From: a virus
UHGV virus genome: UHGV-1967114
DNA: 35,477 bases
Direction: 5' to 3' (one strand)
Shown here: in pieces, positions 1 through 35,381 of the stretch
Layout of the letters: each line of letters begins with the position of its first letter
Numbering within the stretch: the stretch's first letter is position 1
Notes under the pieces: model-generated
Seen by the model: the letters and a program-made list of their open reading frames with translations, nothing else
The model's database searches: none
Told to the model about the DNA's origin: nothing
Program-made: the position numbers and the translations under genes

Positions 1-263
1 CTGAAGCGTTGACCCAGGGCGAAACAGTTGCTGAAGCGATGGAAGCGGCAAAAGATGCTTTACTGACCGCATTTGATTTTTATTTTGAAGATAATGAGCT
101 AATCCCGTTGCCTTCGCCATTAACTAACAACGATCACTTTATTGAAGTACCTTTGAGCGTCGCCTCTAAAGTATTGCTGTTAAATGCTTTTTTACAGTCA
201 GAAATCACTCAGCAAGAGTTAGCCAGGCGAATTGGCAACCCGAATGTAGTCAACCCAAAATAA
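1..263 (+). CDS. hicB: HicB-family antitoxin, 5' portion of a gene interrupted by prophage insertion (truncated by window start); ORF now ends in 8 phage-derived codons (NPNVVNPK) then stop
   Basis: In-frame translation ...TQGETVAEAMEAAKDALLTAFDFYFEDNELIPLPSP...SEITQQELARRIG matches my recollection of E. coli HicB N-domain plus first half of an XRE-type HTH; second half of the HTH is found at 35268..35381 on the same strand. Confidence 0.75.
   Translation, partial: EALTQGETVAEAMEAAKDALLTAFDFYFEDNELIPLPSPLTNNDHFIEVPLSVASKVLLLNAFLQSEITQQELARRIGNPNVVNPK
231..246. other. attL junction: host ATTGGC - AA - phage CCCGAATG; putative 2-bp crossover AA at 237-238
   Basis: hicB reading frame diverges immediately after codon GGC-AA; compare attR at 35261..35276 where hicB frame resumes after AA. 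Confidence 0.55.
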
Positions 264-434
264 CTAAAAATTTTGCAATAAAAAGCCCCATCACAAGGAC
301 AGGGCTATAGAATCAATGAATTAGAAGAATTCTATAGCAACTGAGTCGCAATTAACACCATAAGAAATGAACTTAGGAACTAACTAGTAATATTCAGGCG
401 TTTAACTATCTCTGATTGTATTATGTCGCCTCTA

Positions 435-1229
435 TCATTTTTTCTCTACACAAGAATATTTCCATTCGATTTCCTTTCCGGTACGGTTGTCAACATAAAT
501 ATGATGATAGTCCAGTGTTCTTACATCATCAACCATCTTATCACCGGAATATGTTTTTCCGTGTTGTGCGTATAACTCTACACCAGTTTTTGTAGTTTTT
601 GACATGAATCCATCAGCGTCAATATTCATTTCCACTACAACTGGGGGGTGCATCGTTCCAGAAATTAGAAGTTTTGCCTTGTCTTTGTTTTTATCGATTA
701 CAATTTTTGTGTTTTCTTTCACTATATCACGATCTTCTACACTCAGTCCGTCAATTGTGGTTATCTTAACTACTTTCGGACAAATATATACGAAGTTGCT
801 ATTTGGGGACTTTTCCAGAACAACTTGTTTCTCTTTGGTTTTTAGAGTTTCTACTGCCTTCGGTTGTTCTTCTTCAACCTTCGCAGAAGTCTCTGAATCG
901 CTTTCTGACGCGGTTTCTTCTTTAGATAATACATCCATCAAGTTTTGGATTTGAGCGTTGTATACAGCCTCCAGTGGCTGAATCTGCCCGATATTGATCA
1001 TTGTATCACGAACAGTTTTATTCCAGTTGCGTTGCTCTTGTTTAAGCGACGGATCAATCTTAACAGCCTTAACATATACTTCATGAAGTTTAGAGTCCAG
1101 TGCGGAGATTGACTCATTAGCACAAATAAACTTCTCTGATTTGGTAGTAGCTTTAGTGCAATCGAAGGATGCAGCATTAGCACCGAATGCAGTAGCAGAA
1201 AGAACGATAGCAGCGATAATGTTTTTCAT
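435..1229 (-). CDS. Secreted protein with N-terminal LprI/DUF1311-like domain (signal peptide MKNIIAAIVLSATAFGANA) and C-terminal Cys-containing domain; probable moron
   Basis: Signal peptide; motif C-x(n)-EKFIC...LD..L...Y....QR.W...RD typical of DUF1311; RBS AGAGG upstream of ATG on minus strand. Confidence 0.6.
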   Translation of the reverse strand: MKNIIAAIVLSATAFGANAASFDCTKATTKSEKFICANESISALDSKLHEVYVKAVKIDPSLKQEQRNWNKTVRDTMINIGQIQPLEAVYNAQIQNLMDVLSKEETASESDSETSAKVEEEQPKAVETLKTKEKQVVLEKSPNSNFVYICPKVVKITTIDGLSVEDRDIVKENTKIVIDKNKDKAKLLISGTMHPPVVVEMNIDADGFMSKTTKTGVELYAQHGKTYSGDKMVDDVRTLDYHHIYVDNRTGKEIEWKYSCVEKK

Positions 1230-1587
1230 TTTATACCTCTTTTGGTATGGACTGACTTTTAGATGCTTACTTTATTGATTTTTGATATTTTTTCAATTAT
1301 TGGGATGAGATTTAGTAATTAAATTAAGAAATTAATGCTTGACAAATTAAAAAGGTACTGTTCCACGGATGAAATAAAGGGAGTTTTCGGCACCCCGGTA
1401 TTTGATGTGCGTGTGAGATTCTAAAACGTGATCACTTCACTTATGGCGCGGTCGCTACGCGACTATTAACCCACTTCCTAACCCTTACCATTACTGGATC
1501 TTTCCCTTCGTTAGAATGCGATTTAGGCGCTTAGATTGTGCGTAAAACCAATAAATAAAATTACGCAAATTTAATGGAGGATAACCA

Positions 1588-2142
1588 ATGAAAGAAGAAT
1601 TAACCCTTACAGAAATTTCCCGTTTATATGGCTATACATTGAATGGTGGCGGTAAGCGATGGTTAGAAAGGGGATTGCCATTTAACACCAATACCCGCCG
1701 CGTGCCAGCCAAAGAAGGAACAGAATGGGTCTTGAAAAATATTATCAACCCGCTTAAACAAACTTCTATCAAAGAACAAATCGACGTAGAGAAATTACGC
1801 CGTGAACGTGCTTTGGCAGATGCAGCCGAACGAGAGAACCAGGAAAAAATGAATCTCCTGATTCCTGTCGGTTATGTAGAACAGGAACTAGCGGAATACT
1901 GCGGGAAAGTGAAACAGACTATTTTGCAGATTTGTACGATCGATGCCCTAGAAATTTTAGAATCCGCCACTGATCAGAAAACATTGAAGAATAAGCTAAG
2001 GGAGATCATCGAACGTCGTTTAAATGAAGTAGGGGACTTGTTCGAAAATGCAGATTTGGGAGAAGACGAGGAAGAAGAATTAGCATTAATGGATGAACCG
2101 GAACAAGAACCAGAAGAAGACGATGAATTTGATGTGTCTTAA
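1588..2142 (+). CDS. Nu1-like DNA-packaging protein / terminase small subunit candidate (N-terminal HTH, GGGK motif, EKLRRE, acidic C-terminus)
   Basis: Pattern resembles lambda Nu1 N-terminus (HTH...GGGK...EKLRRE); strong RBS GGAGG 9 nt upstream; note it is not adjacent to the large subunit. Confidence 0.5.
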   Translation: MKEELTLTEISRLYGYTLNGGGKRWLERGLPFNTNTRRVPAKEGTEWVLKNIINPLKQTSIKEQIDVEKLRRERALADAAERENQEKMNLLIPVGYVEQELAEYCGKVKQTILQICTIDALEILESATDQKTLKNKLREIIERRLNEVGDLFENADLGEDEEEELALMDEPEQEPEEDDEFDVS

Positions 2143-2242
2143 AAATTAGATACTAAATATATACGTGAAGGATGTTGAGCTGGTCAACGTCTACGGGGGA
2201 GAACATCCCCCGCTAACCTTTTTCTTATTTGAGGATTTACCT

Positions 2243-2344
2243 ATGGTTGAATTTTTGATTTATCTGGCTGTAGGATTAACTATCGTATATTCACTTGCTC
2301 ACATTGGCATTTCTACTGTGTGTAACGCTTTCAAGTATCATTAA
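2243..2344 (+). CDS. Small hydrophobic membrane peptide (33 aa)
   Basis: ATG preceded by GAGGA RBS; single predicted TM helix; below ORF-track size cutoff. Confidence 0.3.
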   Translation: MVEFLIYLAVGLTIVYSLAHIGISTVCNAFKYH

Positions 2345-2397
2345 TTAAATCGATGAATTGAACTATAGATGATGGTCGTTTTCAAAGAGGATTATCT

Positions 2398-2571
2398 ATG
2401 GATCTTTTTGTCTACTTTGCTACTCTGCTGTTTTTGACTATCGTCGCTGGCATTAAATTGATTTTTATATCGCTGGTGGTGTTTTTCAAATTTCTAATCG
2501 GTACGCCTTACGGCTGGGTATGCTTAATCCAGTTTATTCTTTTTAGTTGCTGTAAAAAGGATACTAAATAA
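2398..2571 (+). CDS. Small membrane protein (57 aa, two hydrophobic segments)
   Basis: ATG preceded by AGAGGA RBS; hydrophobic composition. Confidence 0.35.
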   Translation: MDLFVYFATLLFLTIVAGIKLIFISLVVFFKFLIGTPYGWVCLIQFILFSCCKKDTK

Positions 2572-2728
2572 TAGTGTAATCTGCCTTTTCTCCTTATGGT
2601 TATTAACAGGGGATCTTCTTTGAGGATTCCCGATTAAAAGCCATAAAACACACTCCAGTACAGTGTTTTCATAGTCAGTGATCTATACAACACAAAAACA
2701 TAACAAGTATAGATTGAGTATTAATCCT

Positions 2729-2757
2729 CCCGCCCTTCGGGGCGGTTATTTTTCTGG
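2729..2757 (+). terminator. Intrinsic terminator (CCCGCCC-TTCG-GGGCGG + T-run)
   Basis: GC stem with UUCG tetraloop followed by TTATTTTTCT. Confidence 0.6.
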
Positions 2758-2830
2758 CTTTAAAGAATAATGTAGCATTATGTTCATTATAACCTCATCT
2801 TTGTTGTGCAAACCTAACCTAAACTTACTA

Positions 2831-2857
2831 GGGACTCTTCGGAGTCCCTTTTTTATT
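2831..2857 (+). terminator. Intrinsic terminator (GGGACTC-TTCG-GAGTCCC + T6)
   Basis: Perfect 7-bp stem, UUCG loop, TTTTTTATT; overlaps 3' end of minus-strand gene 2853..3794. Confidence 0.6.
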
Positions 2858-3794
2858 GGCAGTAAGAAAAGTTAGTACCGTACATTTCATCATGAAGCAT
2901 TGCAGCATTGCGTTTCTGTTCTTCTTCCTCGTCTACCGCATCACTAGAAAAATGAGATTTGCCCTTAAAAGAACGAAGCAATTGCAGTGCAGCCATCGGA
3001 TCACGCATCACATCGATTTTCACTTCTACTTCATCATTTGCGGCCTCATCAGCCGCATTTTCAACTACTGCCACCGGAGCAACTTCTTTAGCTTTCAGTT
3101 CTTCAATTTCAGCTTTCTGGGCTTCGATAATCTGGTCTTTTTCTTCCAGTGCAGCTTTCAGTTCTGCGATCTGTGCTTCCAGTGCAGCAAAGCGATCTTC
3201 TACAACAGGAGAAACAGCATTAACCTGTGCTTCCAGTTCCAGAAATGCTTCGCAAGATTCAATACGTTCTTTCTCTTCACCTTCATAAGCAACCAGTTCT
3301 ACAACTTCTTTTTCGGTAGCGTGGCTGTTAAAGAATACAGCAAAGTAAGGATTGCCGGATTTAGTGAAGTTCAGTTTAGCTTTTCCGGTAACTTCTTTAC
3401 GACGACCGAAGGTGATCTGGCAATCAGCGGTATCCTGAAAATCCATGTTAGGAGCGGAAACGATAGCAGTATCACCAGCAATAACCAGGTGGAACAGTTC
3501 AGAAGAGTTCTTAACGGTAAAGGTAACGATGTGGTCTACTGCAACGTCTTTAGCTGGTTTAACGCGGTCGATTGCTTTACGAATGCCGTTAGGCAGTTTA
3601 CCGTCAACACCAAAGCCAGCCGCGATCAGTGCTTCACGATGTGCTTTAAAGCCAGCGAAAGCGGATTTCTGCTGCGCAAAGGAAACATGAGCAACAACTT
3701 TCGGCTGAATCTTCTTGTTTGCTTCGGTGCCAAATTTGATAACTGCTTTAGCGTTGGTTACTTCGTTAGTGAAAAAGTTAGCGGAAAATAACAT
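2853..3794 (-). CDS. Hypothetical early protein with central coiled coil (AALEAQIAELKAALEEKDQIIEAQKAEIEELKAKE) and acidic region; function unknown
   Basis: 313-aa ORF with normal amino-acid composition; overlapping plus-strand ORFs are low-complexity and rejected. Confidence 0.6.
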   Translation of the reverse strand: MLFSANFFTNEVTNAKAVIKFGTEANKKIQPKVVAHVSFAQQKSAFAGFKAHREALIAAGFGVDGKLPNGIRKAIDRVKPAKDVAVDHIVTFTVKNSSELFHLVIAGDTAIVSAPNMDFQDTADCQITFGRRKEVTGKAKLNFTKSGNPYFAVFFNSHATEKEVVELVAYEGEEKERIESCEAFLELEAQVNAVSPVVEDRFAALEAQIAELKAALEEKDQIIEAQKAEIEELKAKEVAPVAVVENAADEAANDEVEVKIDVMRDPMAALQLLRSFKGKSHFSSDAVDEEEEQKRNAAMLHDEMYGTNFSYCQ

Positions 3795-3840
3795 TATAAA
3801 TACTCCTGTGGAAAGTTAGTTTTAATTGTTCATCGCAAAA

Positions 3841-3875
3841 GCCTCCTTGTTGCCGCAAGGGGGCTTTTTTATTTT
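3841..3875. terminator. Intrinsic terminator, possibly bidirectional (GCCTCCTTG...CAAGGGGGC + T6, A4 on other side)
   Basis: 9-bp stem with one wobble, 6-nt loop, T-run on plus side and short A-run upstream. Confidence 0.55.
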
Positions 3876-3906
3876 TAAAGCCATCATATAATTCTCAGTC
3901 AAAGTA

Positions 3907-4089
3907 TCAGTAAACCTCTGCGGTTATCTTTACTTTAATGTCATACTTCTTTAAGAGTTTGTGGAAGGTTGATTGATCAATACCTTCACCTTTAAACCAT
4001 TCACCAATCACTACATCAGGCGTCAGTTCAAAATAACGCTTTGCCATTTCTAAAACGATTTCACGAGTGAACTTAACAGGTCGTGCCAT
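3907..4089 (-). CDS. Small putative DNA-binding protein (60 aa), member of a 3-gene paralog family sharing motif F.RE...[FY]..LKKY.IKV
   Basis: Strong RBS AGGAGG 8 nt upstream; shared motif with 7207..7467 and both halves of 7470..8045. Confidence 0.55.
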   Translation of the reverse strand: MARPVKFTREIVLEMAKRYFELTPDVVIGEWFKGEGIDQSTFHKLLKKYDIKVKITAEVY

Positions 4090-4124
4090 CTTGAATCCTC
4101 CTAAATCTGGATTAATTATTTCTT

Positions 4125-4147
4125 AAAAAAAAGAGCGTTAACCGCTC
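4125..4147 (-). terminator. Possible leader terminator/attenuator upstream of 3907..4089 (minus strand GAGCG-GTTAA-CGCTC + T8)
   Basis: Short 5-bp stem but followed by 8 consecutive T on minus strand, located between candidate promoter and the gene RBS. Confidence 0.3.
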
Positions 4148-4606
4148 ATTGTTATTTATACGGGGATTGTTTTTTAATTTTTCAACCCCTCACATTTATC
4201 TCTTATATATGTATTTATAACAGAGATATGTTAAAATGTTATTCAGATGTTATCAGGCGTGTTAAATGTGTTAAACCACAGCACGAATTGCTAAAGCGAA
4301 GAACGCGATTTAACCAAATTGATGTATATTTAATCAATTTAGAAAAATGCATAGCACTTTTTGCTAAAGCGGTGAGTATTAATTGAGCTATGAATTGTAA
4401 AGATTTGTTACAGGATTTTCTCTCAGATCCAAACCTTAACAGACATATAACAATTTAACAGGATAATAACAATAGGAAGGAAAATCGGTAAATTTTTACT
4501 TTCAATACAAATATTATAACATATTTATCTCGAATTGTCAATTATACCACTGTTCCTACACAGTGTCAACAAAGGACTTTCAAACCTACACTAGCCCTAC
4601 ACTATG

Positions 4607-4785
4607 AAAATTGCCCCTGAACCAAAATCCCCTAGATTTCACATCCCATTTTTGCCCCTGAAACCCACTATTTTTGCCCCTGAAATTCTGGGAAACAGTG
4701 ATTTTGCCCCTCATTTTTGCCCCTGAAATGCCAATAATTGCCCCTGAAAATCTAATTTTTGCCCCTGAAATTTGCCCCCGAAAAG
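4607..4785 (+). repeat. Array of 8 direct repeats, consensus TTTTTGCCCCTGAAA, spacing 13-41 bp, in a 1.37-kb non-coding region; candidate iterons / protein-binding array
   Basis: Copies at about 4611, 4652, 4674, 4704(variant CTCA), 4717, 4738, 4759, 4772(variant CCCCCGA), all same orientation. Confidence 0.8.
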
Positions 4786-5458
4786 GATTGGTAAGAAAAA
4801 CTCTTTATAAAACATTAAGTTAGTGAGGGCAAAAACGGGGAATTGGGCGTGCATAGATATTATATAACACATTCGCTACGCTCATGTGTAAAACCAAAAA
4901 CAACAAATAACCAAAAAGATATTAGGAGGGCGTAGCCCGACTGCGCGAAGCGCTAACCAATTACTTCTAGTAACACTAATTTAAACTAGATGATACTAGA
5001 TGGTCTTAGAAGGAATTAACTAGTTTGCTCGCTCGCTTCGCTCACTCTCAAACGTCTGCGACGCCACTGCGTGGCATCGAGAATCACTTCTGAAAGGATT
5101 TTCTTGAAAGGGATTTTAAACTAGTTACTAACTGATTCTAGTAAACGAACGAAGTGAGTAACAATCACTTTCTAGAAAGGTATTGGTATCCCTTCGGGAT
5201 TGCAACCTTCGGTTGCTAAATTTCTTCCTGATTATTATTTCTTCAAAAGAAAGATTCTTATATTCTAAAGATACTTCTTCGTTTTGGTGATGATTTAATC
5301 AAAATCTATGAAGGAGGGCTTTAGCCCGACTGAATCCAATCACCTTTCAAGTACAGACCAGTTTTGGACTCTACCAGATCACTCTTTTCATAATAACAAG
5401 AATTTTCTCTTTATAAATAATATTAGATTGATTCACTTTCTTTTAGAGGATTTCCACT

Positions 5459-5926
5459 ATGAACCATAAAATGACTACCACTACTCCTTTTATCCTTCTG
5501 GGTCTGGATTCTGATAGCTTCCACAATGACAAGTTAATGAAGATGTTCCGTGAACGTGGTTATAACATCCTTTTCAACTCTGATGAATCCCATTTCTCTA
5601 GTGCATGGTATGCGTTTTGCCGTAATAAGAAGCCGACCATTGTTGTTAACGTCTTCACCGATGAAGAACGCTTAAAGTACCAGAATCTACCAGCAATTAT
5701 TGTTCGTGATGATCTGCCGTTTCAAGTCCGTTCCGGTGACATTGATCTGGGTAGCTTCGTTACTGTCTATGAACTGGATGAAGCAATGTTTAACTACGGT
5801 AAAGAAACCGCTCAGGAAGCCCCAGAAGAAGATGAACAAGACGAAGATGACGACGACTACGCACCAATCTGTTTTTCTTCTCAGAATGGCTTCTACGGTT
5901 ACGACGAAGGCTTAGATATGCTGTAA
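5459..5926 (+). CDS. Hypothetical early protein with highly acidic C-terminus (EEDEQDEDDDDY)
   Basis: 155-aa ORF, RBS AGAGGA; acidic tail. Confidence 0.6.
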   Translation: MNHKMTTTTPFILLGLDSDSFHNDKLMKMFRERGYNILFNSDESHFSSAWYAFCRNKKPTIVVNVFTDEERLKYQNLPAIIVRDDLPFQVRSGDIDLGSFVTVYELDEAMFNYGKETAQEAPEEDEQDEDDDDYAPICFSSQNGFYGYDEGLDML

Positions 5927-5948
5927 GTTAGGTCAACCCTTTGGTGTC

Positions 5949-5990
5949 TTGTCAAGGGGTATTGACAAAAATTTCTAACTTTTTTATGAT
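5949..5990 (+). promoter_or_regulatory. Sigma70-like promoter (TTGACA 5962-5967, 17-bp spacer, TATGAT 5985-5990) overlapped by inverted repeat TTGTCAA-N6-TTGACAA (5949-5968); candidate operator
   Basis: Near-consensus -35/-10 with optimal spacing; palindromic half-sites; third TTGACAA copy at 5999-6005. Confidence 0.5.
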
Positions 5991-6048
5991 TATCGCACTT
6001 GACAACTATGAATCTATTTGACCTAGATTTGTAAATGGAATGTTAATT

Positions 6049-6195
6049 ATGAACGCTACTAAGAAAATTGATGGACGCAAAAACCCGAACCGCAAACCGT
6101 GGACCCCAAACCTGAATTTCTCAATGGTTGACTTCCATGAACGCCAGCGTCGCATTCAAGAAGAAATTGATCGCGCGATTGCTGAATCTAAATGA
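6049..6195 (+). CDS. Small basic protein (48 aa)
   Basis: ATG downstream of promoter at 5962-5990; basic composition; below ORF-track cutoff. Confidence 0.3.
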   Translation: MNATKKIDGRKNPNRKPWTPNLNFSMVDFHERQRRIQEEIDRAIAESK

Positions 6196-7127: not shown

Positions 7128-7135
7128 TAATTTTT

Positions 7136-7164: not shown

Positions 7165-7172
7165 CTATAGGT

Positions 7173-28700: not shown

Positions 28701-29506
28701 AGAACGGGACCGATGTTTGCCCGTTTGGTATCGAAGGTAACAAGGTTTATCTCGATAATGCGATGATTCGTAATGCTGCAATTGGCACAGCCCAGATTAA
28801 TGATGCGGCGATTACTACCGCTAAGATCGGAAATGCTGCAATTAACAGCGCGAAGATTCAGGACGGGGCAATCACTAACGCCAAGATCGTAAACGGTGCA
28901 ATTGATAACGCCAAAATTGGTAACTATATCCAGTCTTCCAACTGGAACGGATCTACCGGATGGCATATCAACAAGAACGGGTCCGCTACGTTCATGAATG
29001 CTACCGTTAAAGGTAATATCACGGCTGATTCTGGTACTCTGAACAACGTCACGATTAACTCTAGCTGTGTTATTAAGGGTATGCTTGAAGCTACTCAGGT
29101 TAAGGGTGATTTCGTTAAGGTGATTGGTAAGAAATTCCCTCATCGTCAACAAAACTGGCCTGATGGCACTGTTACGGTAAGGGTGGAAGATGATCATAAG
29201 TTTGATCGCCAAATTGTGATTCCAGCTATTCACCATAACGGGTCTGTTCGTCGTGGCGAAAGTAGTGATCATTGGGACACTTGCCGATTAATCGTTAAGA
29301 AAAATGGCTCTGTTCTATATGATCGCACGGCTACTTCTGGCAGCATGTACACAGGCGTTATTGACATGCCAGCGGGTAAAGGTGCTGTAACGTTAACATT
29401 CCAAGTTATTTGTGATGGTGTTAACAACTATAACCCAAGTGCATATATCAGCGATCTAACAGTAATGGTAACTAAAAAAGCCACTACTGGTATTACTGTT
29501 TCTTAA
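25760..29506 (+). CDS. Central tail fiber / host specificity protein (lambda gpJ-like) with hydrophobic Gly/Ala-rich N-terminal segment
   Basis: C-terminal ~150 aa (..SGTLNNVTINSSCVIKGMLEA..FPHRQQNWPDGTVTVRVEDDHKFDRQIV...VIDMPAGKGAVTLTF...MVTKKATTGITVS) closely resembles my recollection of lambda J receptor-binding end. Confidence 0.85.
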   Translation: MGFEILVGAVIAGASAGMAAAATFSVMTAVAIGMAAGAMTLIASTVGAPKTPKVQSPDNAVTLGTSNDPKAVIPVVFGTTRTGTNCVYKAVSKQENNKLVQIFSVAEGEIDHYKALFIDNKNVLVGKNMTIRDGILDKGNIKEEYRKVLEVEFRTGKNPNTALSLAKRHLGSDWTDAFKGNGIATMCIVLRRDDKSLAAGVDILQPNSQVAVDVCGLKIRNLETNAIEASTNGVDQIFHYLTNEKYGLSVPIENINVDSFLKVRKQVRQMDLHSNGACDPNASFKENLTSLMQTFGGVMFESFGRITLKLDAPDIVKHTFNEDNIMMGKVSLKTGGTNGYFNTINAMYQEPSIDYSEQMLRYPADAENDATVRADGRIIAKDVEYRFVKSKDQIDKLASIERNKSRITQVISFMTTDAFTAEVWDVISVTYDELKLNNSLWRITAIDRSIDSGIAGMMTITATEYNSQVYTDLNYAATPDNRPSGLPDSMTVQKPTNFRIKATGETIYGKNVTLTWDAPEDFNRYGFQIDYRVSGSPNWIKLGQTSQQIFSVNALAKDRSYDYRVCAFGIIARSDWVELINQNPTVTYELPTPVIRIKNQGSTPGTFEGNDLIIEWENQQQLDVEINGETNKFSDLFEAYIIKVTNKAGKSIQYRTRDPESWTYTLDMNQFNGLSRQLTVEVSAKGYNNSESAPARLVAINPQHKPMKGFSARGGFNTAFVSWADDVEHDYAGSIIQYATDNTFSDARAVSTNSVSHTSFDIADGDYYIRGAHYDIFGMDDAVWSEPYFMSMKSTISWDDQDKEALEDLIGLQDRLDETIADAIAQAGANADAKIDAMHKQITTETGQTVQASADTLKSLITSGDQASATKIDQVKAELKGDITKEVSASATTLKQAIATSEAASASKIDQVRVEMDGKIAGVNQEADVKIDALKGTINSKYNLAVNADGRVAGIHMSATNDPAQPTKIIFTADKIAVAPQNGTDVCPFGIEGNKVYLDNAMIRNAAIGTAQINDAAITTAKIGNAAINSAKIQDGAITNAKIVNGAIDNAKIGNYIQSSNWNGSTGWHINKNGSATFMNATVKGNITADSGTLNNVTINSSCVIKGMLEATQVKGDFVKVIGKKFPHRQQNWPDGTVTVRVEDDHKFDRQIVIPAIHHNGSVRRGESSDHWDTCRLIVKKNGSVLYDRTATSGSMYTGVIDMPAGKGAVTLTFQVICDGVNNYNPSAYISDLTVMVTKKATTGITVS

Positions 29507-29524
29507 AATTTAATTTTAATAATA

Positions 29525-29566
29525 AATCCCGCTTAATTCTTTTGAGTTAGGCGGGATTATTTTTAT
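29525..29566 (+). terminator. Terminator-like hairpin after J-like gene (AATCCCGC...GCGGGATT + ATTTTTAT)
   Basis: 8-bp stem with large 18-nt loop and T-rich tail. Confidence 0.45.
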
Positions 29567-29611
29567 CTAAATAATTTTGCCATTAAACTATATAAAAATA
29601 TCGGGGGCGTA

Positions 29612-29890
29612 ATGACTGAAATTATATATGGCGGTATCGGTGTTATCGCCTTAATTTGTGGTGGTCTTTGGAGACTTCACCGAAATCAATTAGCAACTGA
29701 AAATAGGTTATCTAAATTGGAATCCAGCGACGCATTGTTAAACCAGAAGTTTGAGACGATGCAGAATAACCATACTCAGATTGCTGAACGTGTTTACCAA
29801 ATGGAACAAACACTACACGGTATAGAGAAGAAAGTGGTTGCGATGGACGCCAAATTTGACCAAGTTCTCGACATACTCAAACAAAAATAA
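29612..29890 (+). CDS. Membrane protein with N-terminal TM helix and coiled-coil tail; holin- or spanin-like lysis protein candidate
   Basis: IIYGGIGVIALICGGLW hydrophobic segment then charged helical region; RBS GGGGGCG; position at start of lysis region. Confidence 0.4.
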   Translation: MTEIIYGGIGVIALICGGLWRLHRNQLATENRLSKLESSDALLNQKFETMQNNHTQIAERVYQMEQTLHGIEKKVVAMDAKFDQVLDILKQK

Positions 29891-29908
29891 TAATAAAGGG
29901 GTGAATAT

Positions 29909-30079
29909 ATGAAGAATAAACTTAAGAAATATTTTGGTTATCTCTTGATTGTCGCCCTCACTTATAACGTAGCTATTAGACCTCTGCTAACGTCCTTTGG
30001 GCTTGAACTCCCGGCTATGACCGTGGATGAACAATTGCTAAGGACACTGGCGGGGGTCTTTTCGTTATTAGGGGGCTAA
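29909..30079 (+). CDS. Small single-TM protein (56 aa); holin/antiholin candidate
   Basis: RBS AAAGGGGTGA; hydrophobic core YLLIVALTYNVAI; below ORF-track cutoff. Confidence 0.3.
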   Translation: MKNKLKKYFGYLLIVALTYNVAIRPLLTSFGLELPAMTVDEQLLRTLAGVFSLLGG

Positions 30080-30080
30080 C

Positions 30081-30764
30081 ATGGCAACCAGTACCAATAA
30101 ACGAAACGCTCTAAGGACTAAGAAAGCGTTACGCCAATGGACTGATAAAGCAACCGATACATTCGAAAAGGCGATAGGGGAAGGGGCGATCTTTGCTTCC
30201 AGAGCACTCCAGAAGAAGATTAACAAGAATGTTGATAGACCTACTCGATGGACTCAGCAAGCTGTAGGTAATACCAACTACAAGAACCGATCAGGGACGA
30301 GACACCAAATCTTCATCAAGGGCGCAAGGGATAAGGACAAGAAGATCGGTAGTCAGGACGACTATCTGAAACACTATTTCGATGGTGGCAAAATCAATAA
30401 GCTAGTGCCAATCGCTAACGGTAAGGTCTTAGACGCCCACGGGAACATTAAGGCCATCAAAGGCGGTAAGATGATGCGTAACATCGAAAACGGCAACTTC
30501 ATCAAGGTAGAGAACAAGGAAGGGACTTTTATCATGAAGAAGTACAAGCCTAAGAAATCCCGAACCAAACGCGCTAAGAATGGATCGGCGGTGGCAAAAC
30601 GTCGCTTAGAGAAACGCATCCAGAAACAGAGTAAGCGAATTGTTGCCGTTAAGTCGGATAAAATTTCTACTCGTTATTCGACGCTAGGATCGTGGGAAAG
30701 CAATGAAGCAATGATGCTTGAAAACATCAATAAGCACATTAAATCGCGCATGAAATACGTTTAA
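30081..30764 (+). CDS. Hypothetical highly basic protein (Lys/Arg-rich)
   Basis: 227-aa ORF with RBS; basic composition. Confidence 0.55.
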   Translation: MATSTNKRNALRTKKALRQWTDKATDTFEKAIGEGAIFASRALQKKINKNVDRPTRWTQQAVGNTNYKNRSGTRHQIFIKGARDKDKKIGSQDDYLKHYFDGGKINKLVPIANGKVLDAHGNIKAIKGGKMMRNIENGNFIKVENKEGTFIMKKYKPKKSRTKRAKNGSAVAKRRLEKRIQKQSKRIVAVKSDKISTRYSTLGSWESNEAMMLENINKHIKSRMKYV

Positions 30765-30802
30765 TCAATAAATACCCTCATAGAATCCTATGGAGGTATA
30801 AC

Positions 30803-31150
30803 ATGGCTAAAAATATTTTCACTGAATTTCCTACTTATCCGGTCGATCAGCTTTCCGGTATTTTTATTAATGGCATTAGCCCAGAATCAATGACCTATGA
30901 TTTTGAGGCGAAGAGAGTTAAACATAAACAATATAAAGAATGTATCCGCGATCATGAAAAAGGGACCGTGTTTTGTGTCGCTACATTGGCTAAACGTCCT
31001 AAGTATCGTTTTCGTGTCGGGCAAGAAGTCGATGTAGTTAATCCTTATAGCTTTAACTGTCTGGGTGATGCACGCGCGGTGTGTGTAGGCACTGCTCCTT
31101 ATTATATCAAGGGTATGCGCTTTATTGGTTATATCTTCGAAATGATCTAA
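30803..31150 (+). CDS. Hypothetical protein
   Basis: 115-aa ORF with RBS GGAGG. Confidence 0.55.
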   Translation: MAKNIFTEFPTYPVDQLSGIFINGISPESMTYDFEAKRVKHKQYKECIRDHEKGTVFCVATLAKRPKYRFRVGQEVDVVNPYSFNCLGDARAVCVGTAPYYIKGMRFIGYIFEMI

Positions 31151-31159
31151 GGGGGTAAT

Positions 31160-31513
31160 ATGTTAAGTAAGCATTTTTCTCGCAAGGAATTTAAATGTAG
31201 ATGCGGAAAATGTGATTATGATACTATCGATGCTGAATTACTGGTAATTCTTGAGGATGTACGAGAACACTTCGGGAAACCAGTTATTATTAACAGTGGC
31301 AACCGTTGCCCGACTCATAACAAGAATGTAGGCGGGGCAGCCAATAGCTATCACGTTCGAGGCCGCGCGGCTGACATTGTTATCAAGGGTGTCTCACCTG
31401 ATATTGTTCATGCTTATCTTGATGGGAAATATCCTACTCAATACGGCTTAGGAAAATATAAAACATTTACGCATATCGATTCCAGATCGAAAAAATCACG
31501 ATGGAATGGATAA
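31160..31513 (+). CDS. Peptidase M15 family (Peptidase_M15_3-like) cell-wall hydrolase; endolysin candidate
   Basis: Motif SGNRCPTHNKNVGGAANSYHVRGRAADIV ... FTHID matches zinc-binding H/D/H signature of M15 peptidases (recollection). Confidence 0.65.
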   Translation: MLSKHFSRKEFKCRCGKCDYDTIDAELLVILEDVREHFGKPVIINSGNRCPTHNKNVGGAANSYHVRGRAADIVIKGVSPDIVHAYLDGKYPTQYGLGKYKTFTHIDSRSKKSRWNG

Positions 31514-31518
31514 AATTA

Positions 31519-31545
31519 AAGCGCCTCTAGTGGGCGCTTTTTTGT
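31519..31545 (+). terminator. Intrinsic terminator ending the late operon (AAGCGCC-TCTAGTG-GGCGCTT + T6)
   Basis: GC stem and TTTTTTG immediately after stop of 31160..31513. Confidence 0.7.
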
Positions 31546-31710
31546 TAGAATATGCTGGCGACGTTAGCTATATTTCTGACCATTTTTTCATTATAGACAA
31601 ATATACCGCAGACGATAAAGTCGTTTTTGACGAAGCCGTCTCTGGTTGAAGTAATGAAAGAACCGGAAGACCTAGAGCTTGATTTAAGCCCATTAGAGAC
31701 TCTCTAACGC

Positions 31711-31741
31711 AATTAAATTAAAAAGGGGTACGAATTACCCC
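31711..31741 (-). terminator. Intrinsic terminator for minus-strand recombinase-side operon (GGGGTA-CGAAT-TACCCC with T-run on minus strand)
   Basis: Hairpin preceded on plus strand by AATTAAATTAAAAA; located downstream of minus-strand stop at 31780. Confidence 0.5.
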
Positions 31742-31779
31742 TTAAAGCGTTTGGTTCGTTATACGGCGATTTAGGCCGC

Positions 31780-32052
31780 CTATGATTTATTTTCTTGTTC
31801 TATGAAAATCTTTCTCACCTCATCAGAATAAATGTCTAGTGATTCCTCATAACATTTTCTGTATTCACCGTAATTACTGGTGGTCTTTTGACATAGCAAT
31901 TTCAATGTTTTATGTGCTCCATCAATGAAAGCATCTTCTCTATAGGTTAGCGGTCTACGCATTTCTTGGTCTACGGTTGCCAATGCCAGGCAAGAATTCA
32001 TAGATAAAATCAAACCTAAAATCTTAATCATCTTCATTAGCTTAAATTCCAA
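31780..32052 (-). CDS. Small secreted protein (signal peptide MKMIKILGLILSMNSCLALA), Cys-containing
   Basis: Hydrophobic N-terminus with ALA cleavage-like site; overlaps 3' end of recombinase gene. Confidence 0.5.
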   Translation of the reverse strand: MEFKLMKMIKILGLILSMNSCLALATVDQEMRRPLTYREDAFIDGAHKTLKLLCQKTTSNYGEYRKCYEESLDIYSDEVRKIFIEQENKS

Positions 32053-33721
32053 ATTCCTGTAATGGACCTGGTATTTCTTCTTCTGGTTTCCAGTTCTTAT
32101 CTGTCAGCATGTCTAAACATGGATGCAGAACAAGCCCGTTACTCTCCAGAATCTGCCTATCATTGATAGTCTTCAAATCAATGAAGATCCGGCCTTTCCT
32201 CGGTCCTCTTGAATTTTCTATTACAACTCTCTGGGTCTTGCCATCGATGTATTCCAATACAAACAAGTTTTTGTACTTGTCAATCCTGCTACACCCGATC
32301 CGTTTTAGAGCTTGCTTAATCTTAAACCGGACCTTAATGCGATCCTCGTTGTAAACATCTTCTAAATCAAATTCTGCGAGCTTCTCCCAGCCTTGAGAGT
32401 CAACAGAATACATTTCCTCTTCTGCCATCTTAATTTGATTGTAGAGTGTTTCACGCTCGCTATTGAGGGTAGTAATCTGATCGGCTAGCTCCTTCGTTGC
32501 TCCTGTCATAGCAGAAAGGGTAATCAGGTTATCAATCTTGCGTGATATTTCATCAATCTGTACTTTCAAAGCCGGAACCGGATTAGCCTTATCTTCAGCA
32601 ATCCAGATTTTATCAGCCAGCAATTGCAATACAGCTTTCTCTAATTGGTCGCCGCGAAAACTCCAGTTTGTATGCACACATTCAATACGACTAGAGCGCA
32701 TTGCATCGCATGAATAACGATATTGGTTAGGCCGTCTGTTTGTTCCTTTCACCTTAACCATAGCGGAACCGCAATGTTCACATTTCAATAGACCAACACC
32801 ACTAAGCAAGGGAATAGGTTTAACTTCTTCTTTGTCTCCAAAGTTACATGCTCTAACACCAATGCTTTTCTTAAGGTGATAAAACTCAGCGTCATCTAGC
32901 ACACGAGGATAATAATCCTTTAACTCATACTTAACGCCATCTACAGAGATTTCCTTGATACCAATCAAAGCGCGGGTATGGAACAACCTTTCAATCATTG
33001 CCCGTGACCAGTTTGAATGCCTCTTGTGACTTGCGGCTGGTGGTGGTGTGTATGTCGCGTTAAGGTGATCCAGTATCTCGGCGGTTGACCGTCCATTCCT
33101 GCGTAATTCCACAACTTCCTGAACAATAGGGAAGAAGACCGGATGAGGAAGCACATAACCAGATGTGGTATCAGTCCACCACATATTCTTTCCAATTTCC
33201 TCGATTGCAACAGCCGGATTTTGTGGATTTTCTTGATGAGCTTTAATCTTAATCAGTGCGCTTGAGTTAGTACGATTGCGCTTAGTCTGGCTTTCCTCAT
33301 TACCACGGATGAATAAAAGGATGGAGAACATCAGGTCCATCGGGTTAGCGGTAACAGTATCCAGCGAGTAGATCTTGTTATCCATGCCAGTAACAATGGT
33401 TATCCCCCTACGGATGATTGAAAGGAATAACTCCTGCGCACTGACAATATCGGCACGGGATAAACGGTCCAAGTTTTCGATGAATAGCCAGCTACCAACA
33501 GGAACGGATCTACCTATTGCATCAAGGAAACGAGATAGCGCCCCTGTTTTGGAGTTAGCACCCTTAAACGCAGATACACCCAGATCCTGATAATCATTTA
33601 CCAGTTCAAGGTCATACTTTACCGCAATCTCTCTAGCCATCCTGATTTGTCGTTCATAACTCGAACCATCATTCTGACGCATAGACGAGAAGCGAATATA
33701 CGAATACAGTTTAGTTTTCAT
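32042..33721 (-). CDS. Large serine recombinase (probable prophage integrase); start taken at ATG 33721
   Basis: N-terminal resolvase-type motif YIRFSSMRQ (catalytic Ser), central recombinase region, zinc-ribbon CEHCGSAMVKV...YRYSCD...IECVH; 559 aa. Confidence 0.85.
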   Translation of the reverse strand: MKTKLYSYIRFSSMRQNDGSSYERQIRMAREIAVKYDLELVNDYQDLGVSAFKGANSKTGALSRFLDAIGRSVPVGSWLFIENLDRLSRADIVSAQELFLSIIRRGITIVTGMDNKIYSLDTVTANPMDLMFSILLFIRGNEESQTKRNRTNSSALIKIKAHQENPQNPAVAIEEIGKNMWWTDTTSGYVLPHPVFFPIVQEVVELRRNGRSTAEILDHLNATYTPPPAASHKRHSNWSRAMIERLFHTRALIGIKEISVDGVKYELKDYYPRVLDDAEFYHLKKSIGVRACNFGDKEEVKPIPLLSGVGLLKCEHCGSAMVKVKGTNRRPNQYRYSCDAMRSSRIECVHTNWSFRGDQLEKAVLQLLADKIWIAEDKANPVPALKVQIDEISRKIDNLITLSAMTGATKELADQITTLNSERETLYNQIKMAEEEMYSVDSQGWEKLAEFDLEDVYNEDRIKVRFKIKQALKRIGCSRIDKYKNLFVLEYIDGKTQRVVIENSRGPRKGRIFIDLKTINDRQILESNGLVLHPCLDMLTDKNWKPEEEIPGPLQEFGI

Positions 33722-33730
33722 ACCATTTCC

Positions 33731-33770
33731 AAACAAAAACGCCCCTACCGCGTATTATAACGATAGGGGC
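33731..33770 (-). terminator. Terminator-like hairpin between secreted-protein gene and recombinase gene (minus strand)
   Basis: GCCCCTA...TAGGGGC stem with 16-nt loop, followed on minus strand by GTTTTTGTTT. Confidence 0.45.
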
Positions 33771-33784
33771 TAGGTGATTAAAGA

Positions 33785-34204
33785 TTAAAGAATTTCACGG
33801 CAGCTAATCAGGGTATAAGATGTATCACCTTTTTTAACATCAAATATAGGAGCGCCATCTACAGAATGCAGATATTTGATGTAAGACTTACCATCTTCGG
33901 AACCATAATATTCTTCTTTCTCGTTCTTATCTTCTTTCAGTTTCGGGCTTTTGATTGTTTTATCAAATACCGGATCGTTGAAAGCAAATTGACTATTATC
34001 ATCATTCACTCGAACCTTTACACCGATAAAACCACGGTATTTGCCAGACGGCGCATGATAATAACGGTCGCCATCACTCAGGTAGCGTGTATCATCTCCT
34101 TTATATTCGAAGTAGGAATTGCACACATAATAGGTATAGGTATTAGCATTTGCAGCACCAACCAAACCCAGAGCAAGAACGATACCAGCGATAATCTTTT
34201 TCAT
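33785..34204 (-). CDS. Secreted protein (signal peptide ...LVGAANA), two Cys; possibly related to C-terminal domain of 435..1229
   Basis: Signal peptide; Y-V-C near N-terminus and I-S-C near C-terminus as in the 264-aa protein (FVYIC...KYSC). Confidence 0.6.
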   Translation of the reverse strand: MKKIIAGIVLALGLVGAANANTYTYYVCNSYFEYKGDDTRYLSDGDRYYHAPSGKYRGFIGVKVRVNDDNSQFAFNDPVFDKTIKSPKLKEDKNEKEEYYGSEDGKSYIKYLHSVDGAPIFDVKKGDTSYTLISCREIL

Positions 34205-34515
34205 AGTAGAATTTCCTCTTGTTGTTTGAATTACGATATATTTATATCGTTAAAAATTGATGCTAATTACCAGACCAAACACAACCGCACCAATCAAATC
34301 AATCCAGTTAATACACAATCCGCTATATTCTTTCTTGAATGTCTTAGATGAAATGCCATCATGAAATTGTTTCATTGCTCACCCCATACTAACGACAAGA
34401 TAAGAAAGACTAATAATAGTTGTGAGACTACCTCCCACGAATGAGATAAAAGCTAACATGTTTGATTCTCCATTTAAAAAGCGGTGGGAATTACACCCAC
34501 CAAATTAGAAATTAA

Positions 34516-34953
34516 TTAAGCGCGAACGATGGTCAGAGTATCCAGCAAACCTTTTTCGTATAATTCAAAACACGTTTTATATTGCTCAATCTGGAAACCA
34601 TAGCGGGTGATCTTATTCAGTAGAACAATCACGGTATTCTCATCTAGGTATTGTCCTTGCTTACCAATTACATATGACTCGCGGGATAGTCTCAGCTTAC
34701 GGAAACCTTTAACACCTAATTCCTTAGCCACCGCTTTAATCTCGTTAATCTCACCTTCTGCGGCTACATATTCAGCGTCGATAATATCAGTTGATGATCT
34801 CAGTGCTACCAGAACTAAAGCCATTGCTTCTTCTTCGGTACGAGCAACACCAGCTTTCTCGAAAGTCATCTCACCAAATTTACGAATCATGATATTGAAC
34901 ATTGTCTGTATTCCGTTTAAATCGGCGGGAATAGTACCCGCCAAATTAGACAT
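34516..34953 (-). CDS. Hypothetical protein (145 aa), second gene of attR-proximal two-gene operon
   Basis: Start overlaps upstream stop (TAATG); no recognizable motif. Confidence 0.55.
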   Translation of the reverse strand: MSNLAGTIPADLNGIQTMFNIMIRKFGEMTFEKAGVARTEEEAMALVLVALRSSTDIIDAEYVAAEGEINEIKAVAKELGVKGFRKLRLSRESYVIGKQGQYLDENTVIVLLNKITRYGFQIEQYKTCFELYEKGLLDTLTIVRA

Positions 34954-35249
34954 TACTTCTTGCTGATAAACTCTTTAGCGATAAAGTTGATTACTTCTTT
35001 CAGCTTCTTGTCTGTATCGATGCACGCTGGTAATTCTTCTTTAATATCCTGCGGCAGATACACATTCCCTTTAAAGTGGAGGAAACCATCATTACCAATC
35101 ATGTAGGAGAACATCCATTCACAATCGTTATCCGCTTCCCAGAACGCCACGGTCTCATCGTCAATCAAGGTAATGTCCATGTTGCGACGTGCTGCGTAGT
35201 TGATGATTGCTTTACCGATGTTCATTGTTGTACCCCCTCGTGTTATCAT
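34953..35249 (-). CDS. Hypothetical protein (98 aa), first gene of attR-proximal two-gene operon
   Basis: ORF begins 18 nt inside attR; RBS GGGGGT; no recognizable motif. Confidence 0.55.
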   Translation of the reverse strand: MITRGGTTMNIGKAIINYAARRNMDITLIDDETVAFWEADNDCEWMFSYMIGNDGFLHFKGNVYLPQDIKEELPACIDTDKKLKEVINFIAKEFISKK

Positions 35250-35267
35250 GGGTACATGATATTAGGG

Positions 35268-35381
<114 letters not shown>

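What the first reader, a model, noticed from the sequence alone, without database searches (positions are those of the whole stretch)
231..35276. Serine-recombinase integration with a 2-bp AA crossover and imperfect palindromic attP core
attL and attR share only the dinucleotide AA bounded by mismatches on both sides (host ATTGGC-AA-ACCTAAA; attL ATTGGC-AA-CCCGAATG; attR ATTAGGG-AA-ACCTAAA). There are no long direct repeats. The reconstructed attP core ATTAGGG-AA-CCCGAAT is an imperfect inverted repeat around a non-palindromic centre, as expected for large serine integrases. The only recombinase in the element is the 559-aa serine recombinase at 32042..33721, which makes this a candidate new integrase/att pair targeting a TA-module gene.
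Basis: partly seen in the sequence, partly recalled or inferred. Interest (0 to 1): 0.6.

Follow-up and report, generated by a model that had tools for sequence, protein, structure and literature searches.

The report
Serine-integrase prophage inserted in hicB
A 35-kb E. coli prophage sits inside the antitoxin gene hicB exactly as expected for a large serine integrase (2-bp AA crossover, symmetric phage site); this is an ordinary mechanism, but the integrase/site pair looks uncharacterised and close relatives have retargeted to another gene.

Summary

- **Junctions.** The window is E. coli chromosome with a 35,031-bp prophage in hicB. Against real empty sites, attL and attR share exactly AA (237-238 and 35268-35269).
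- **attP.** The reconstructed site is an 18/26 imperfect inverted repeat around AA, the joint best dyad among all 35,031 positions of the circularised phage.
- **Integrase.** The 559-aa protein (32042-33721, minus strand) has all three large-serine-recombinase Pfam domains, the catalytic serine and four zinc cysteines. Its predicted fold matches full-length phiC31-type integrases. No other recombinase was found in the element.
- **Relatives.** They occupy hicB (30 complete genomes), ycdX or codB. The target tracks perfectly with the DNA-binding (RD/ZD) allele, not with the catalytic-domain allele.
- **Extra inference.** A sigma-70-like promoter spans the attP crossover and is conserved in five attP variants. 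Integration would split it.
- **Limits.** No excised attP junction was found in any collection searched, and no directionality factor was identified.

Verdict: a new member of a known kind. It is only 24-30% identical to E. coli serine integrases already tested. Interest is moderate.

The parts
1..263 (+). 5' part of host hicB (the window starts inside the gene). It is fused at codon 102 to 8 phage-encoded codons (..RRIG-NPNVVNPK*). The HicA-neutralising N-terminal part is kept and the C-terminal DNA-binding part is lost.
211..264 (+). attL, made of host B arm 211-236, crossover AA 237-238 and phage P' arm 239-264
239..35267 (.). Prophage body; 35,031 bp counting one copy of AA. It carries small and large terminase, lambda-type portal, protease-capsid fusion, tail genes, T4-like tail-fibre module, M15 endolysin and a Rha-type regulator.
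284..306 (-). Terminator-like hairpin ending the LprI-like gene (435-1229), 46 bp from the crossover. In the circular form it would insulate attP from leftward transcription.
248..253 (-). Putative -35 hexamer TTGACT inside the P' arm; one half of the attP-spanning promoter. Inferred.
35256..35261 (-). Putative -10 hexamer TATCAT inside the P arm, 30 nt upstream of the ATG at 35225. Inferred.
32042..33721 (-). Large serine recombinase (integrase), 559 aa. Catalytic domain about 1-136, long helix 139-164, recombinase domain about 196-291, zinc ribbon about 310-356 (C314, C317, C338, C348), coiled coil about 357-438, C-terminal beta domain about 472-540. Nucleophile is S12 in YIRFSS.
33741..33770 (-). 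Strong terminator-like hairpin plus T-run, with TTATAAT in its loop, 20 nt upstream of the int start codon. A similar element precedes int in Edwardsiella.
33785..34204 (-). 139-aa ORF of unknown function between attR and int
34516..34953 (-). 145-aa ORF (phrog_14908, function unknown)
34953..35225 (-). 90-aa ORF (phrog_6147, function unknown). It is the first gene downstream of attP, and its RBS GAGGGGG lies next to the outer P arm.
35242..35295 (+). attR, made of phage P arm 35242-35267, crossover AA 35268-35269 and host B' arm 35270-35295
35270..35381 (+). 3' part of hicB (codons 103-138, PKQEITRLFN...LVMV*), followed by the start of ydcR

Best explanation
The window holds a temperate, siphovirus-like prophage. 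Its own large serine integrase inserted it into the E. coli antitoxin gene hicB by conservative site-specific recombination.

Inferred mechanism, from established knowledge of the family: integrase dimers bind the roughly 54-bp dyad-symmetric attP (GTTATCATGGGTACATGATATTAGGG-AA-CCCGAATGTAGTCAACCCAAAATAAC) and the weakly symmetric attB (..GCGAATTGGC-AA-ACCTAAACAGG..). They synapse, make 2-bp staggered double-strand cuts at the central AA through serine 12, rotate subunits and religate. This yields attL and attR, which share only AA. Because AA is not palindromic, it fixes the orientation.

Shown here: the junction anatomy, the attP dyad, the full domain set, catalytic residues and predicted fold of the enzyme, the absence of any other recombinase, repeated occupation of the identical site in unrelated strains, and target choice that follows the DNA-binding-domain allele.

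Inferred: catalysis itself, the roughly 50-bp site limits, and how excision is controlled (no directionality factor identified).

The insertion truncates HicB after residue 101, inside its C-terminal helix-turn-helix. The toxin-neutralising N-terminal domain remains, which explains why lysogens with an intact hicA are viable.
For: - **Junctions.** Empty site versus attL/attR shows a 2-bp AA overlap and no duplication.
- **attP dyad.** 18/26, joint best of 35,031 positions.
- **Enzyme.** Resolvase, Recombinase and Zn_ribbon_recom are above their curated cut-offs. R10, Q16, the E82/D85/R86/R89 motif and four zinc cysteines are invariant in 59 homologues, and S12 is at least 90% conserved. The AlphaFold model has mean pLDDT 83.8 and shows a catalytic domain, long helix, helical recombinase domain, zinc ribbon and a two-helix coiled coil. 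Foldseek top hits are full-length serine integrase complexes, phiC31, LI integrase 4KIS and Bxb1, at probability 1.00.
- **No other recombinase**.
- **Recurrence.** The same attR junction occurs in 20 complete genomes from pigs, humans, cattle and chicken, including O55:H7 and O6:H16, and in two metagenome contigs.
- **Target follows the binding domains.** The RD/ZD segment is bimodal: 30 genomes at 96.8% identity or more, all at hicB, and 24 at 84-87%, of which 14 were checked and all are at ycdX. Of 41 amino-acid differences between the window integrase and the ycdX-type PEC41 integrase, 31 fall in residues 191-355 (binomial P = 1.5e-9). All four combinations of catalytic-domain allele and RD/ZD allele exist, and the site follows RD/ZD.
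- **Second site.** ycdX lysogens also share only AA between attL and attR, with nearly the same attP.
- **hicA.** It is intact in lysogens DEC5A, H2 and PE15.
Against: - There is no experimental or read-level evidence of recombination. The predicted attP junction was absent from IMG/VR, JGI metagenome contigs and GTDB representative genomes. Every contig recovered was in the integrated form.
- No recombination directionality factor could be identified.
- RefSeq flags the large terminase of the PI7 prophage (100% identical to the window over the right-hand 4 kb compared) as frameshifted. The 637-aa ORF here does cover both terminase domains and matches the length of the intact homologue in FDAARGOS_1267. 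This copy might still be defective.
- The allele-to-site association is not phylogenetically independent evidence. It could partly reflect co-inheritance of int and att blocks.
Confidence: 0.9

Rival explanations
1. The element is a transposon-like insertion. The AA would be a 2-bp target-site duplication and the symmetric ends (CCCGAAT... / ...ATTAGGG) would be terminal inverted repeats used by a transposase.
For: The geometry is formally identical: inverted ends flanked by a duplicated dinucleotide.
Against: No DDE or other transposase domain was found in any ORF. The same base pair is used in 30 genomes, and only three targets were seen in the whole family. Target choice follows the integrase's DNA-binding-domain allele. 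The element is a complete tailed-phage genome.
Confidence: 0.02
2. Integration was done by a tyrosine integrase that has been lost or acts in trans, and the serine recombinase has another role such as resolution or inversion.
For: Only the lack of direct activity data. Also, the PE15-type relative shows a 14-bp attP/attB identity (TTGGCAAACCTAAA), which superficially looks like a tyrosine-type core.
Against: The window type and the ycdX type share only 2 bp, too little for tyrosine-integrase strand-swap homology. No tyrosine recombinase is present in the element. The protein has the integrase-specific recombinase, zinc-ribbon and coiled-coil modules that resolvases and invertases lack. The gene lies 1.5 kb from attP in every relative. 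PE15's integrase is identical to the window's at 410 of 414 positions from residue 146 onward (162/165 in the RD/ZD segment 191-355), and it uses the same site.
Confidence: 0.02
3. The anatomy is a genuine serine-integrase footprint, but this copy is a fossil: a defective prophage that can no longer excise or form particles. The att/integrase pair here would then be historical and not active. This does not exclude the best explanation.
For: RefSeq marks the terminase as a pseudogene in the PI7 prophage (identical to the window over the 4 kb compared). No replication module, CI-type repressor or directionality factor was recognised. No attP junction was found in the public collections searched. 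No deposited phage genome resembles it.
Against: The integrase ORF is intact with all catalytic and zinc residues. Structural genes are full length. Integrases in lysogens from unrelated lineages, hosts and continents are at least 99.5% identical in DNA, which implies recent spread. The terminase ORF covers both domains.
Confidence: 0.2

Closest known systems
Phage large serine integrases: phiC31 Int, Bxb1 Int, TP901-1 Int, Listeria A118/LI Int (PDB 4KIS), SPbeta SprA
   Same: The domain order is the same: catalytic domain, long helix, recombinase domain, zinc ribbon with inserted coiled coil. attP is short and dyad-symmetric and attB is less symmetric. There is a 2-bp non-palindromic crossover, and attL/attR carry no duplication.
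   Different: Identity in structural alignments is only 12-17%, and there is essentially no sequence-level hit to any solved structure. The host is an enterobacterium, whereas the classical examples come from Gram-positive bacteria. About 110 residues of beta-rich C-terminal domain follow the coiled coil. Neither a directionality factor nor activity is known.
E. coli large serine recombinases Ec03-Ec07 of Durrant et al. 2022 (PMC10083194), predicted with att sites by comparing lysogens with empty sites
   Same: Same species and the same way of deriving attP and attB. The concept of a core dinucleotide inside a short 'attachment site centre' is the same.
   Different: They are 24-30% identical to this protein. 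The att strings and the N-terminus of this protein are absent from the supplementary files held here. Their complete predicted database could not be searched, so prior prediction cannot be excluded.
Gene-disrupting serine-integrase prophages: SPbeta in spsM (PMC5499854), A118 in comK
   Same: Insertion is inside a protein-coding host gene, so excision would restore the reading frame exactly.
   Different: Here the disrupted gene is a type II antitoxin. The cut falls between its two functional halves, so the neutralising domain survives. No evidence of regulated excision.
State-dependent int promoters of ICEs (ICEKp1, ICEclc, ICEEc1; PMC13023037) and junction promoters of circularised IS elements (IS911 and IS30 type; from my own knowledge)
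   Same: A promoter works only when the element's two ends are joined, and a terminator-like stem-loop sits in the int leader. Here a -35 in P' and a -10 in P flank the crossover, with a hairpin directly before int.
   Different: Those cases involve tyrosine integrases or transposases and have been shown experimentally. Here the promoter is only a conserved consensus match inside the integrase-binding arms of a serine-integrase attP.

Membership tests
Large serine recombinase (serine integrase) | N-terminal serine-recombinase catalytic domain with nucleophilic Ser and conserved Arg/Asp residues | tested here: met
   PF00239 scores 54.3 bits against a cut-off of 23.3. The motif is Y8-I-R10-F-S12-S13. 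R10, Q16, R24, Q25, E82, D85, R86 and R89 are invariant and S12 is at least 90% conserved in 59 homologues. Fold hits include TP901-1, Sin and gamma-delta catalytic domains.
Large serine recombinase (serine integrase) | Recombinase domain (RD) after the long E-helix | tested here: met
   PF07508 scores 32.1 bits against a cut-off of 21.1 at residues 198-286. The model has a helical domain at 196-291.
Large serine recombinase (serine integrase) | Zinc-ribbon domain with four Cys ligands | tested here: met
   PF13408 scores 39.6 bits against a cut-off of 25.3 at residues 310-368. C314, C317, C338 and C348 are invariant.
Large serine recombinase (serine integrase) | Coiled-coil motif emerging from the zinc-ribbon domain (controls directionality) | tested here: met
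   The model shows helices 357-373, 382-406 and 410-438 with pLDDT mostly 80-90. Full-length alignments to phiC31 and other integrase-att complexes have probability 1.00. This is prediction only.
Large serine recombinase (serine integrase) | attP and attB share a 2-bp non-palindromic central dinucleotide, and attL/attR are simple hybrids without target duplication | tested here: met
   AA is the only overlap when attL and attR are compared with real empty sites. The ycdX-type relative gives the same result.
Large serine recombinase (serine integrase) | attP is an imperfect inverted repeat of about 50 bp centred on the crossover, and attB is shorter and less symmetric | tested here: met
   attP scores 18/26 per arm, the joint best of 35,031 positions. 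attB scores 8/26. Functional site limits were not determined.
Large serine recombinase (serine integrase) | Integrase alone is sufficient for attP x attB recombination, and attL x attR needs a phage-encoded directionality factor | not testable with these tools
   No assay was possible. No candidate factor was recognisable among the ORFs near int. The neighbouring genes are not conserved across the family.
Tyrosine integrase system (considered and rejected) | Tyrosine recombinase gene plus an attP/attB identity core of about 7 bp or more | tested here: not met
   No Phage_integrase-type domain was found in any ORF. The core is only 2 bp.
Transposon with TIRs and 2-bp TSD (considered and rejected) | Element-encoded transposase and many unrelated insertion sites | tested here: not met
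   No transposase was found. Only three specific target genes were seen family-wide, and one exact position is used in 30 genomes.

The most novel reading that the evidence does not exclude
Two things beyond a routine att pair are not excluded.

(a) The attP site may double as a split sigma-70 promoter. The -35 TTGACT lies in the P' arm and the -10 TATCAT in the P arm, with a 17-nt spacer containing the crossover. Integrase-mediated integration would then physically dismantle the promoter of the int-proximal operon, and any transcript reading on through the hairpin into int would be lost with it. Excision or infection would reassemble it. That would make it an integration-state sensor built into a serine-integrase attachment site.

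(b) This enterobacterial prophage family may have naturally retargeted from the ancestral ycdX site to hicB. The change would be about 31 substitutions confined to the recombinase and zinc-ribbon domains, with the inner attP kept. Double lysogens carry both types at their own sites. This would be a natural example of serine-integrase reprogramming.
Probability: 0.4. Interest if true: 0.55.

Novelty: new member of a known kind. Interest (0 to 1): 0.4.

Why it matters
A further serine integrase with defined attP and attB adds little on its own, because thousands have been predicted.

This one has three useful properties:

1. It is native to E. coli, and its attB is present in nearly every E. coli chromosome. 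That makes it a possible single-copy integration tool, orthogonal to the lambda, HK022 and phi80 systems.
2. Nature supplies matched variants: same catalytic domain with different binding domains, and the reverse, landing in hicB or ycdX. This gives a compact, testable map of specificity-determining residues. Such a map bears on current efforts to reprogram serine integrases.
3. The insertion cuts a type II antitoxin between its neutralising and DNA-binding halves. This predicts derepressed hicAB expression in lysogens.

The possible attP-spanning promoter, if real, would show how a serine-integrase phage senses whether it is integrated.

Tried and rejected
1. **Excised attP junction.** I searched for TATTAGGGAACCCGAAYGTAGT and a longer variant in IMG/VR, JGI metagenome contigs and GTDB representative genomes. 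There were no matches.
2. **Candidate phage circles.** Contigs of about 35 kb carrying the integrase (ENA scaffold of 35,782 bp, IMG/VR entries) might have been circles. All are integrated prophages, or are trimmed at or before attR.
3. **hicB as a general hot spot.** About 1200 genomes covered less than 80% of the empty-site query. They simply carry a divergent 5' hicB allele with attB intact.
4. **hicA inactivation as a requirement for lysogeny.** hicA is frameshifted in PI7 and 24AR0357 but intact in DEC5A, H2 and PE15.
5. **Directionality factor.** Pfam and PHROGs gave only unknown-function families for the three ORFs between int and attR. These ORFs are not conserved across genera.
6. **Prior description.** Full-text searches (hicB or ycdX with prophage, serine recombinase, integration site) found nothing specific. 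One paper merely lists ycdX as a prophage locus in Cronobacter sakazakii.
7. **AA in every family member.** The codB-type relative shares GGCA between attP and attB, and its centre is more likely CA. AA is therefore not universal in the family.
8. **Rfam.** The scan of the window at gathering thresholds found nothing.

Full report
**What the window is**

The flanks are E. coli chromosome. The left end is the 5' part of the antitoxin gene hicB. The right end is the 3' part of hicB followed by ydcR. The right-hand 4 kb is 100% identical to strains PI7 (pig, Cuba) and 24AR0357 (human, New Zealand).

Between the hicB halves lies a 35,031-bp tailed-phage genome. It encodes small and large terminase, a lambda-type portal, a protease-capsid fusion, tail tube, chaperone and tip proteins, a T4-like tail-fibre module, an M15 endolysin and a Rha-type regulator. 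Nothing similar is among 50,697 deposited phage genomes apart from the tail-fibre module.

**Checking the observation**

The quoted strings are at 231-246 and 35261-35276. An uninterrupted hicB reading ...GACGAATTGGC-AA-ACCTAAACAGG... is found over at least 80% of the query in 4217 of 5426 complete E. coli genomes. About 1150 more differ only in the 5' half of hicB.

Compared base by base, attL retains host sequence up to the second A of GGCAAACC, and attR retains host sequence from the first A. The two junctions therefore overlap by exactly AA (237-238 and 35268-35269). There is no direct repeat at the ends.

The reconstructed attP is GTTATCATGGGTACATGATATTAGGG-AA-CCCGAATGTAGTCAACCCAAAATAAC. 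Its arms match as an inverted repeat at 6/7, 12/18 and 18/26 positions. I scored every position of the circularised phage the same way, and only one other position reaches 18/26. The dyad is therefore far beyond chance, and it lies exactly where the junctions place it. attB is only weakly symmetric (8/26). All four half-sites share nCC-n-A at positions 1-5 from the centre.

**The enzyme**

The ORF at 32042-33721 (minus strand, 559 aa) matches Resolvase, Recombinase and Zn_ribbon_recom, all above Pfam's curated thresholds. It also matches the PHROG integrase family.

In an alignment of 59 homologues, R10 and Q16 of the nucleophile motif (Y8-I-R10-F-S12-S13), the E82/D85/R86/R89 motif and four zinc cysteines (C314, C317, C338, C348) are invariant. 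S12 is at least 90% conserved.

An AlphaFold model (mean pLDDT 83.8) shows these elements in order:
- the catalytic domain;
- the long E-helix;
- a helical recombinase domain;
- a zinc ribbon;
- a helical hairpin of about 80 residues (the coiled coil);
- an additional C-terminal beta domain.

Foldseek against the PDB returns full-length serine integrase-att complexes, phiC31 integrase, the Listeria LI integrase-attP complex 4KIS and Bxb1, all at probability 1.00 but only 12-17% identity. A sequence search of the PDB finds almost nothing.

No other ORF in the element has a recombinase or transposase domain. RefSeq annotates none in the PI7 prophage, whose right-hand 4 kb is identical to the window.

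**Evidence from relatives**

The integrase family occurs in 57 of 5426 complete E. coli genomes. It also occurs in Shigella, in Salmonella (68-75% identity), in E. fergusonii (72%) and in Edwardsiella (60%).

I found three targets.

1. **hicB.** Twenty complete genomes have the same attR as the window, in strains from pigs, humans, cattle and chicken, including O55:H7 and O6:H16. About ten more have a variant attP at the same site.
2. **ycdX.** E. coli PEC41 and at least 13 others, Salmonella, and probably Edwardsiella use this gene. In PEC41, attL is CATCCCGGA-AA-CCCGAACG and attR is ATTAGGG-AA-TCCCAAAT. The overlap is again only AA, and attP is nearly identical to the window's.
3. **codB.** E. 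fergusonii and E. coli 06-00048 use this gene. Here attP and attB share GGCA, and the centre is more likely CA.

**What decides the target**

The integrases are mosaics.

| Pair compared | Catalytic domain, aa 1-145 | RD/ZD, aa 191-355 |
|---|---|---|
| Window vs PEC41 (ycdX) | 2 of 145 differ | 31 of 165 differ |
| Window vs PE15 (hicB) | 32 of 145 differ | 3 of 165 differ |

For window versus PEC41, 31 of all 41 differences fall in residues 191-355 (binomial P = 1.5e-9).

All four allele combinations exist, and the site always follows the RD/ZD allele:
- window, catalytic allele a with RD/ZD allele H: hicB;
- PEC41, a with X: ycdX;
- PE15 and an IMG/VR prophage, b with H: hicB;
- FDAARGOS_1267, b with X-like: ycdX.

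Genome-wide, the RD/ZD DNA segment is sharply bimodal. Thirty genomes are at least 96.8% identical to the window, and all are hicB lysogens. Twenty-four are 84-87% identical; the 14 I could place are all in ycdX, and none is in hicB. Two strains (BS74R-D and UTME-9) carry both types.

Several ycdX-type residues are shared with the Salmonella ycdX integrases: N232, K234, K237, W292 and P352, against H, R, N, C and T in the window. ycdX therefore looks ancestral and hicB derived. This association is strong, but it is not phylogenetically independent proof of causation.

**Consequence for the host**

The crossover is in codon 102 of 138, inside the C-terminal helix-turn-helix (..TQQELARRIG|KPKQEITRLFN..). 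The attL fusion encodes residues 1-101 plus NPNVVNPK.

From published work on HicAB (my knowledge; Turnbull and Gerdes 2017 is cited in PMC5854682), the N-terminal domain neutralises HicA and the C-terminal domain represses the operon. Lysogens should therefore remain protected but lose autoregulation. Consistent with this, hicA is intact in lysogens DEC5A, H2 and PE15. It is frameshifted only in the PI7/24AR0357 lineage.

**An additional inference: a promoter across attP**

On the minus strand of attP, TTGACT (248-253, P' arm) and TATCAT (35256-35261, P arm) are separated by 17 nt that include the crossover. They lie 30 nt upstream of the ATG at 35225, which has the RBS GAGGGGG.

The same arrangement recurs in all five attP variants I could reconstruct, although their sequences differ:

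| attP variant | -35 | spacer (nt) | -10 |
|---|---|---|---|
| window (hicB) | TTGACT | 17 | TATCAT |
| PEC41 (ycdX) | TTGACT | 17 | TATCAT |
| FDAARGOS_1267 (ycdX) | TTGACA | 17 | TATCAT |
| PE15 (hicB) | TTTACA | 18 | TATAAT |
| 06-00048 (codB) | TTGACC | 16 | TATCAT |

Phage-wide there are only 11 matches of this quality (at least 10/12) in 70,062 strand positions. After integration, host sequence replaces the -35 with ATCTCC.

Downstream, a strong terminator-like hairpin (33741-33770) sits 20 nt before the int start codon. A similar element precedes int in Edwardsiella, where no ORF separates attP from int. This resembles the state-dependent int promoters shown for ICEKp1, ICEclc and ICEEc1 (PMC13023037).

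The same bases are also integrase-binding arms, so conservation alone does not prove promoter function.

**What is missing**

- No excised attP junction was found in IMG/VR, JGI metagenome contigs or GTDB representative genomes.
- Every contig retrieved is in the integrated form.
- No directionality factor was identified.
- RefSeq calls the large terminase of the PI7 prophage a pseudogene, although the ORF here spans both terminase domains.

**Novelty and verdict**

The mechanism is textbook large-serine-integrase biology, so this is a new member of a known kind.

The protein is 24-30% identical to the E. coli recombinases Ec03-Ec07 tested by Durrant et al. 2022. Its sequence and att strings are not in the supplementary text held here. 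I found no paper describing a hicB-targeting serine integrase. I could not search Durrant's complete predicted database, so prior computational prediction remains possible.

The added value is the natural hicB/ycdX specificity switch and the candidate split promoter. Interest: moderate (0.4).

Noticed in passing
window 248-253 and 35256-35261 (minus strand), joined in attP: A sigma-70-like promoter (TTGACT-17-TATCAT) spans the attP crossover, 30 nt upstream of the first ORF of the int-proximal operon. It is conserved in five divergent attP variants, and integration would split it.
   Followed up: partly
window 33741-33770 (minus strand): An 11-bp-stem terminator-like hairpin plus T-run, with TTATAAT in the loop, lies 20 nt before the int start codon. 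A similar element precedes int in Edwardsiella (L014 about 5020-5055). It may be an attenuator of int expression.
   Followed up: partly
window 4609-4783 (plus inverted copy 4827-4840), within the ORF-poor stretch 4090-5459: Seven to eight direct copies of TTTGCCCCTGAAA are spaced mostly 21-22 bp apart. This iteron-like array could be an origin or operator. No replication protein was recognised nearby.
   Followed up: no
window 16042-19644 and 20350-20856; also within 435-1229: The tail-fibre gene (gp34 trimerisation domain plus S74 chaperone), a Gp38-type adhesin and part of the LprI-like gene match virulent T4-like Krischvirus phages (RB49, JSE) at 80-84% DNA identity. This indicates module exchange between a temperate siphovirus-like prophage and T4-like phages.
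   Followed up: partly
outside the window: hicA in NZ_CP074033 (PI7) and NZ_CP195351 (24AR0357): The toxin gene hicA is frameshifted in the two strains identical to the window over the 4 kb compared. It is intact in lysogens DEC5A, H2 and PE15, so toxin loss is not needed for lysogeny.
   Followed up: yes
L004/L006 (E. coli PE15, NZ_CP041628): A relative at hicB has an attP whose inner 14 bp (TTGGCAAACCTAAA) are identical to attB. Its integrase differs from the window's only in the catalytic domain. This prophage also carries an ISApl1-mcr-1-pap2-ISApl1 colistin-resistance transposon.
   Followed up: partly
L053/L057 (E. coli 06-00048), L011 (E. fergusonii), L054 (empty codB): A 72%-identical integrase allele targets codB. 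attP and attB share GGCA only if the host has the GGC codon, which most E. coli lack (they have GGT). This may explain why only one of 5426 genomes is occupied.
   Followed up: partly
NZ_CP063332 (BS74R-D) and NZ_CP157110 (UTME-9): Each of these genomes contains two copies of the integrase family. They appear to be double lysogens with one prophage at hicB and one at ycdX.
   Followed up: partly
L007-L013, L018, L047, L052: Many relatives carry a UvsW-like helicase and a UvsY-like protein (T4 recombination mediators), and sometimes a GIY-YIG nuclease, next to int. The window's prophage lacks this module.
   Followed up: no
window 2853-3794: Two almost fully overlapping long ORFs lie on opposite strands: 313 aa on the minus strand (annotated in RefSeq) and 311 aa on the plus strand. 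Neither has a family match.
   Followed up: no
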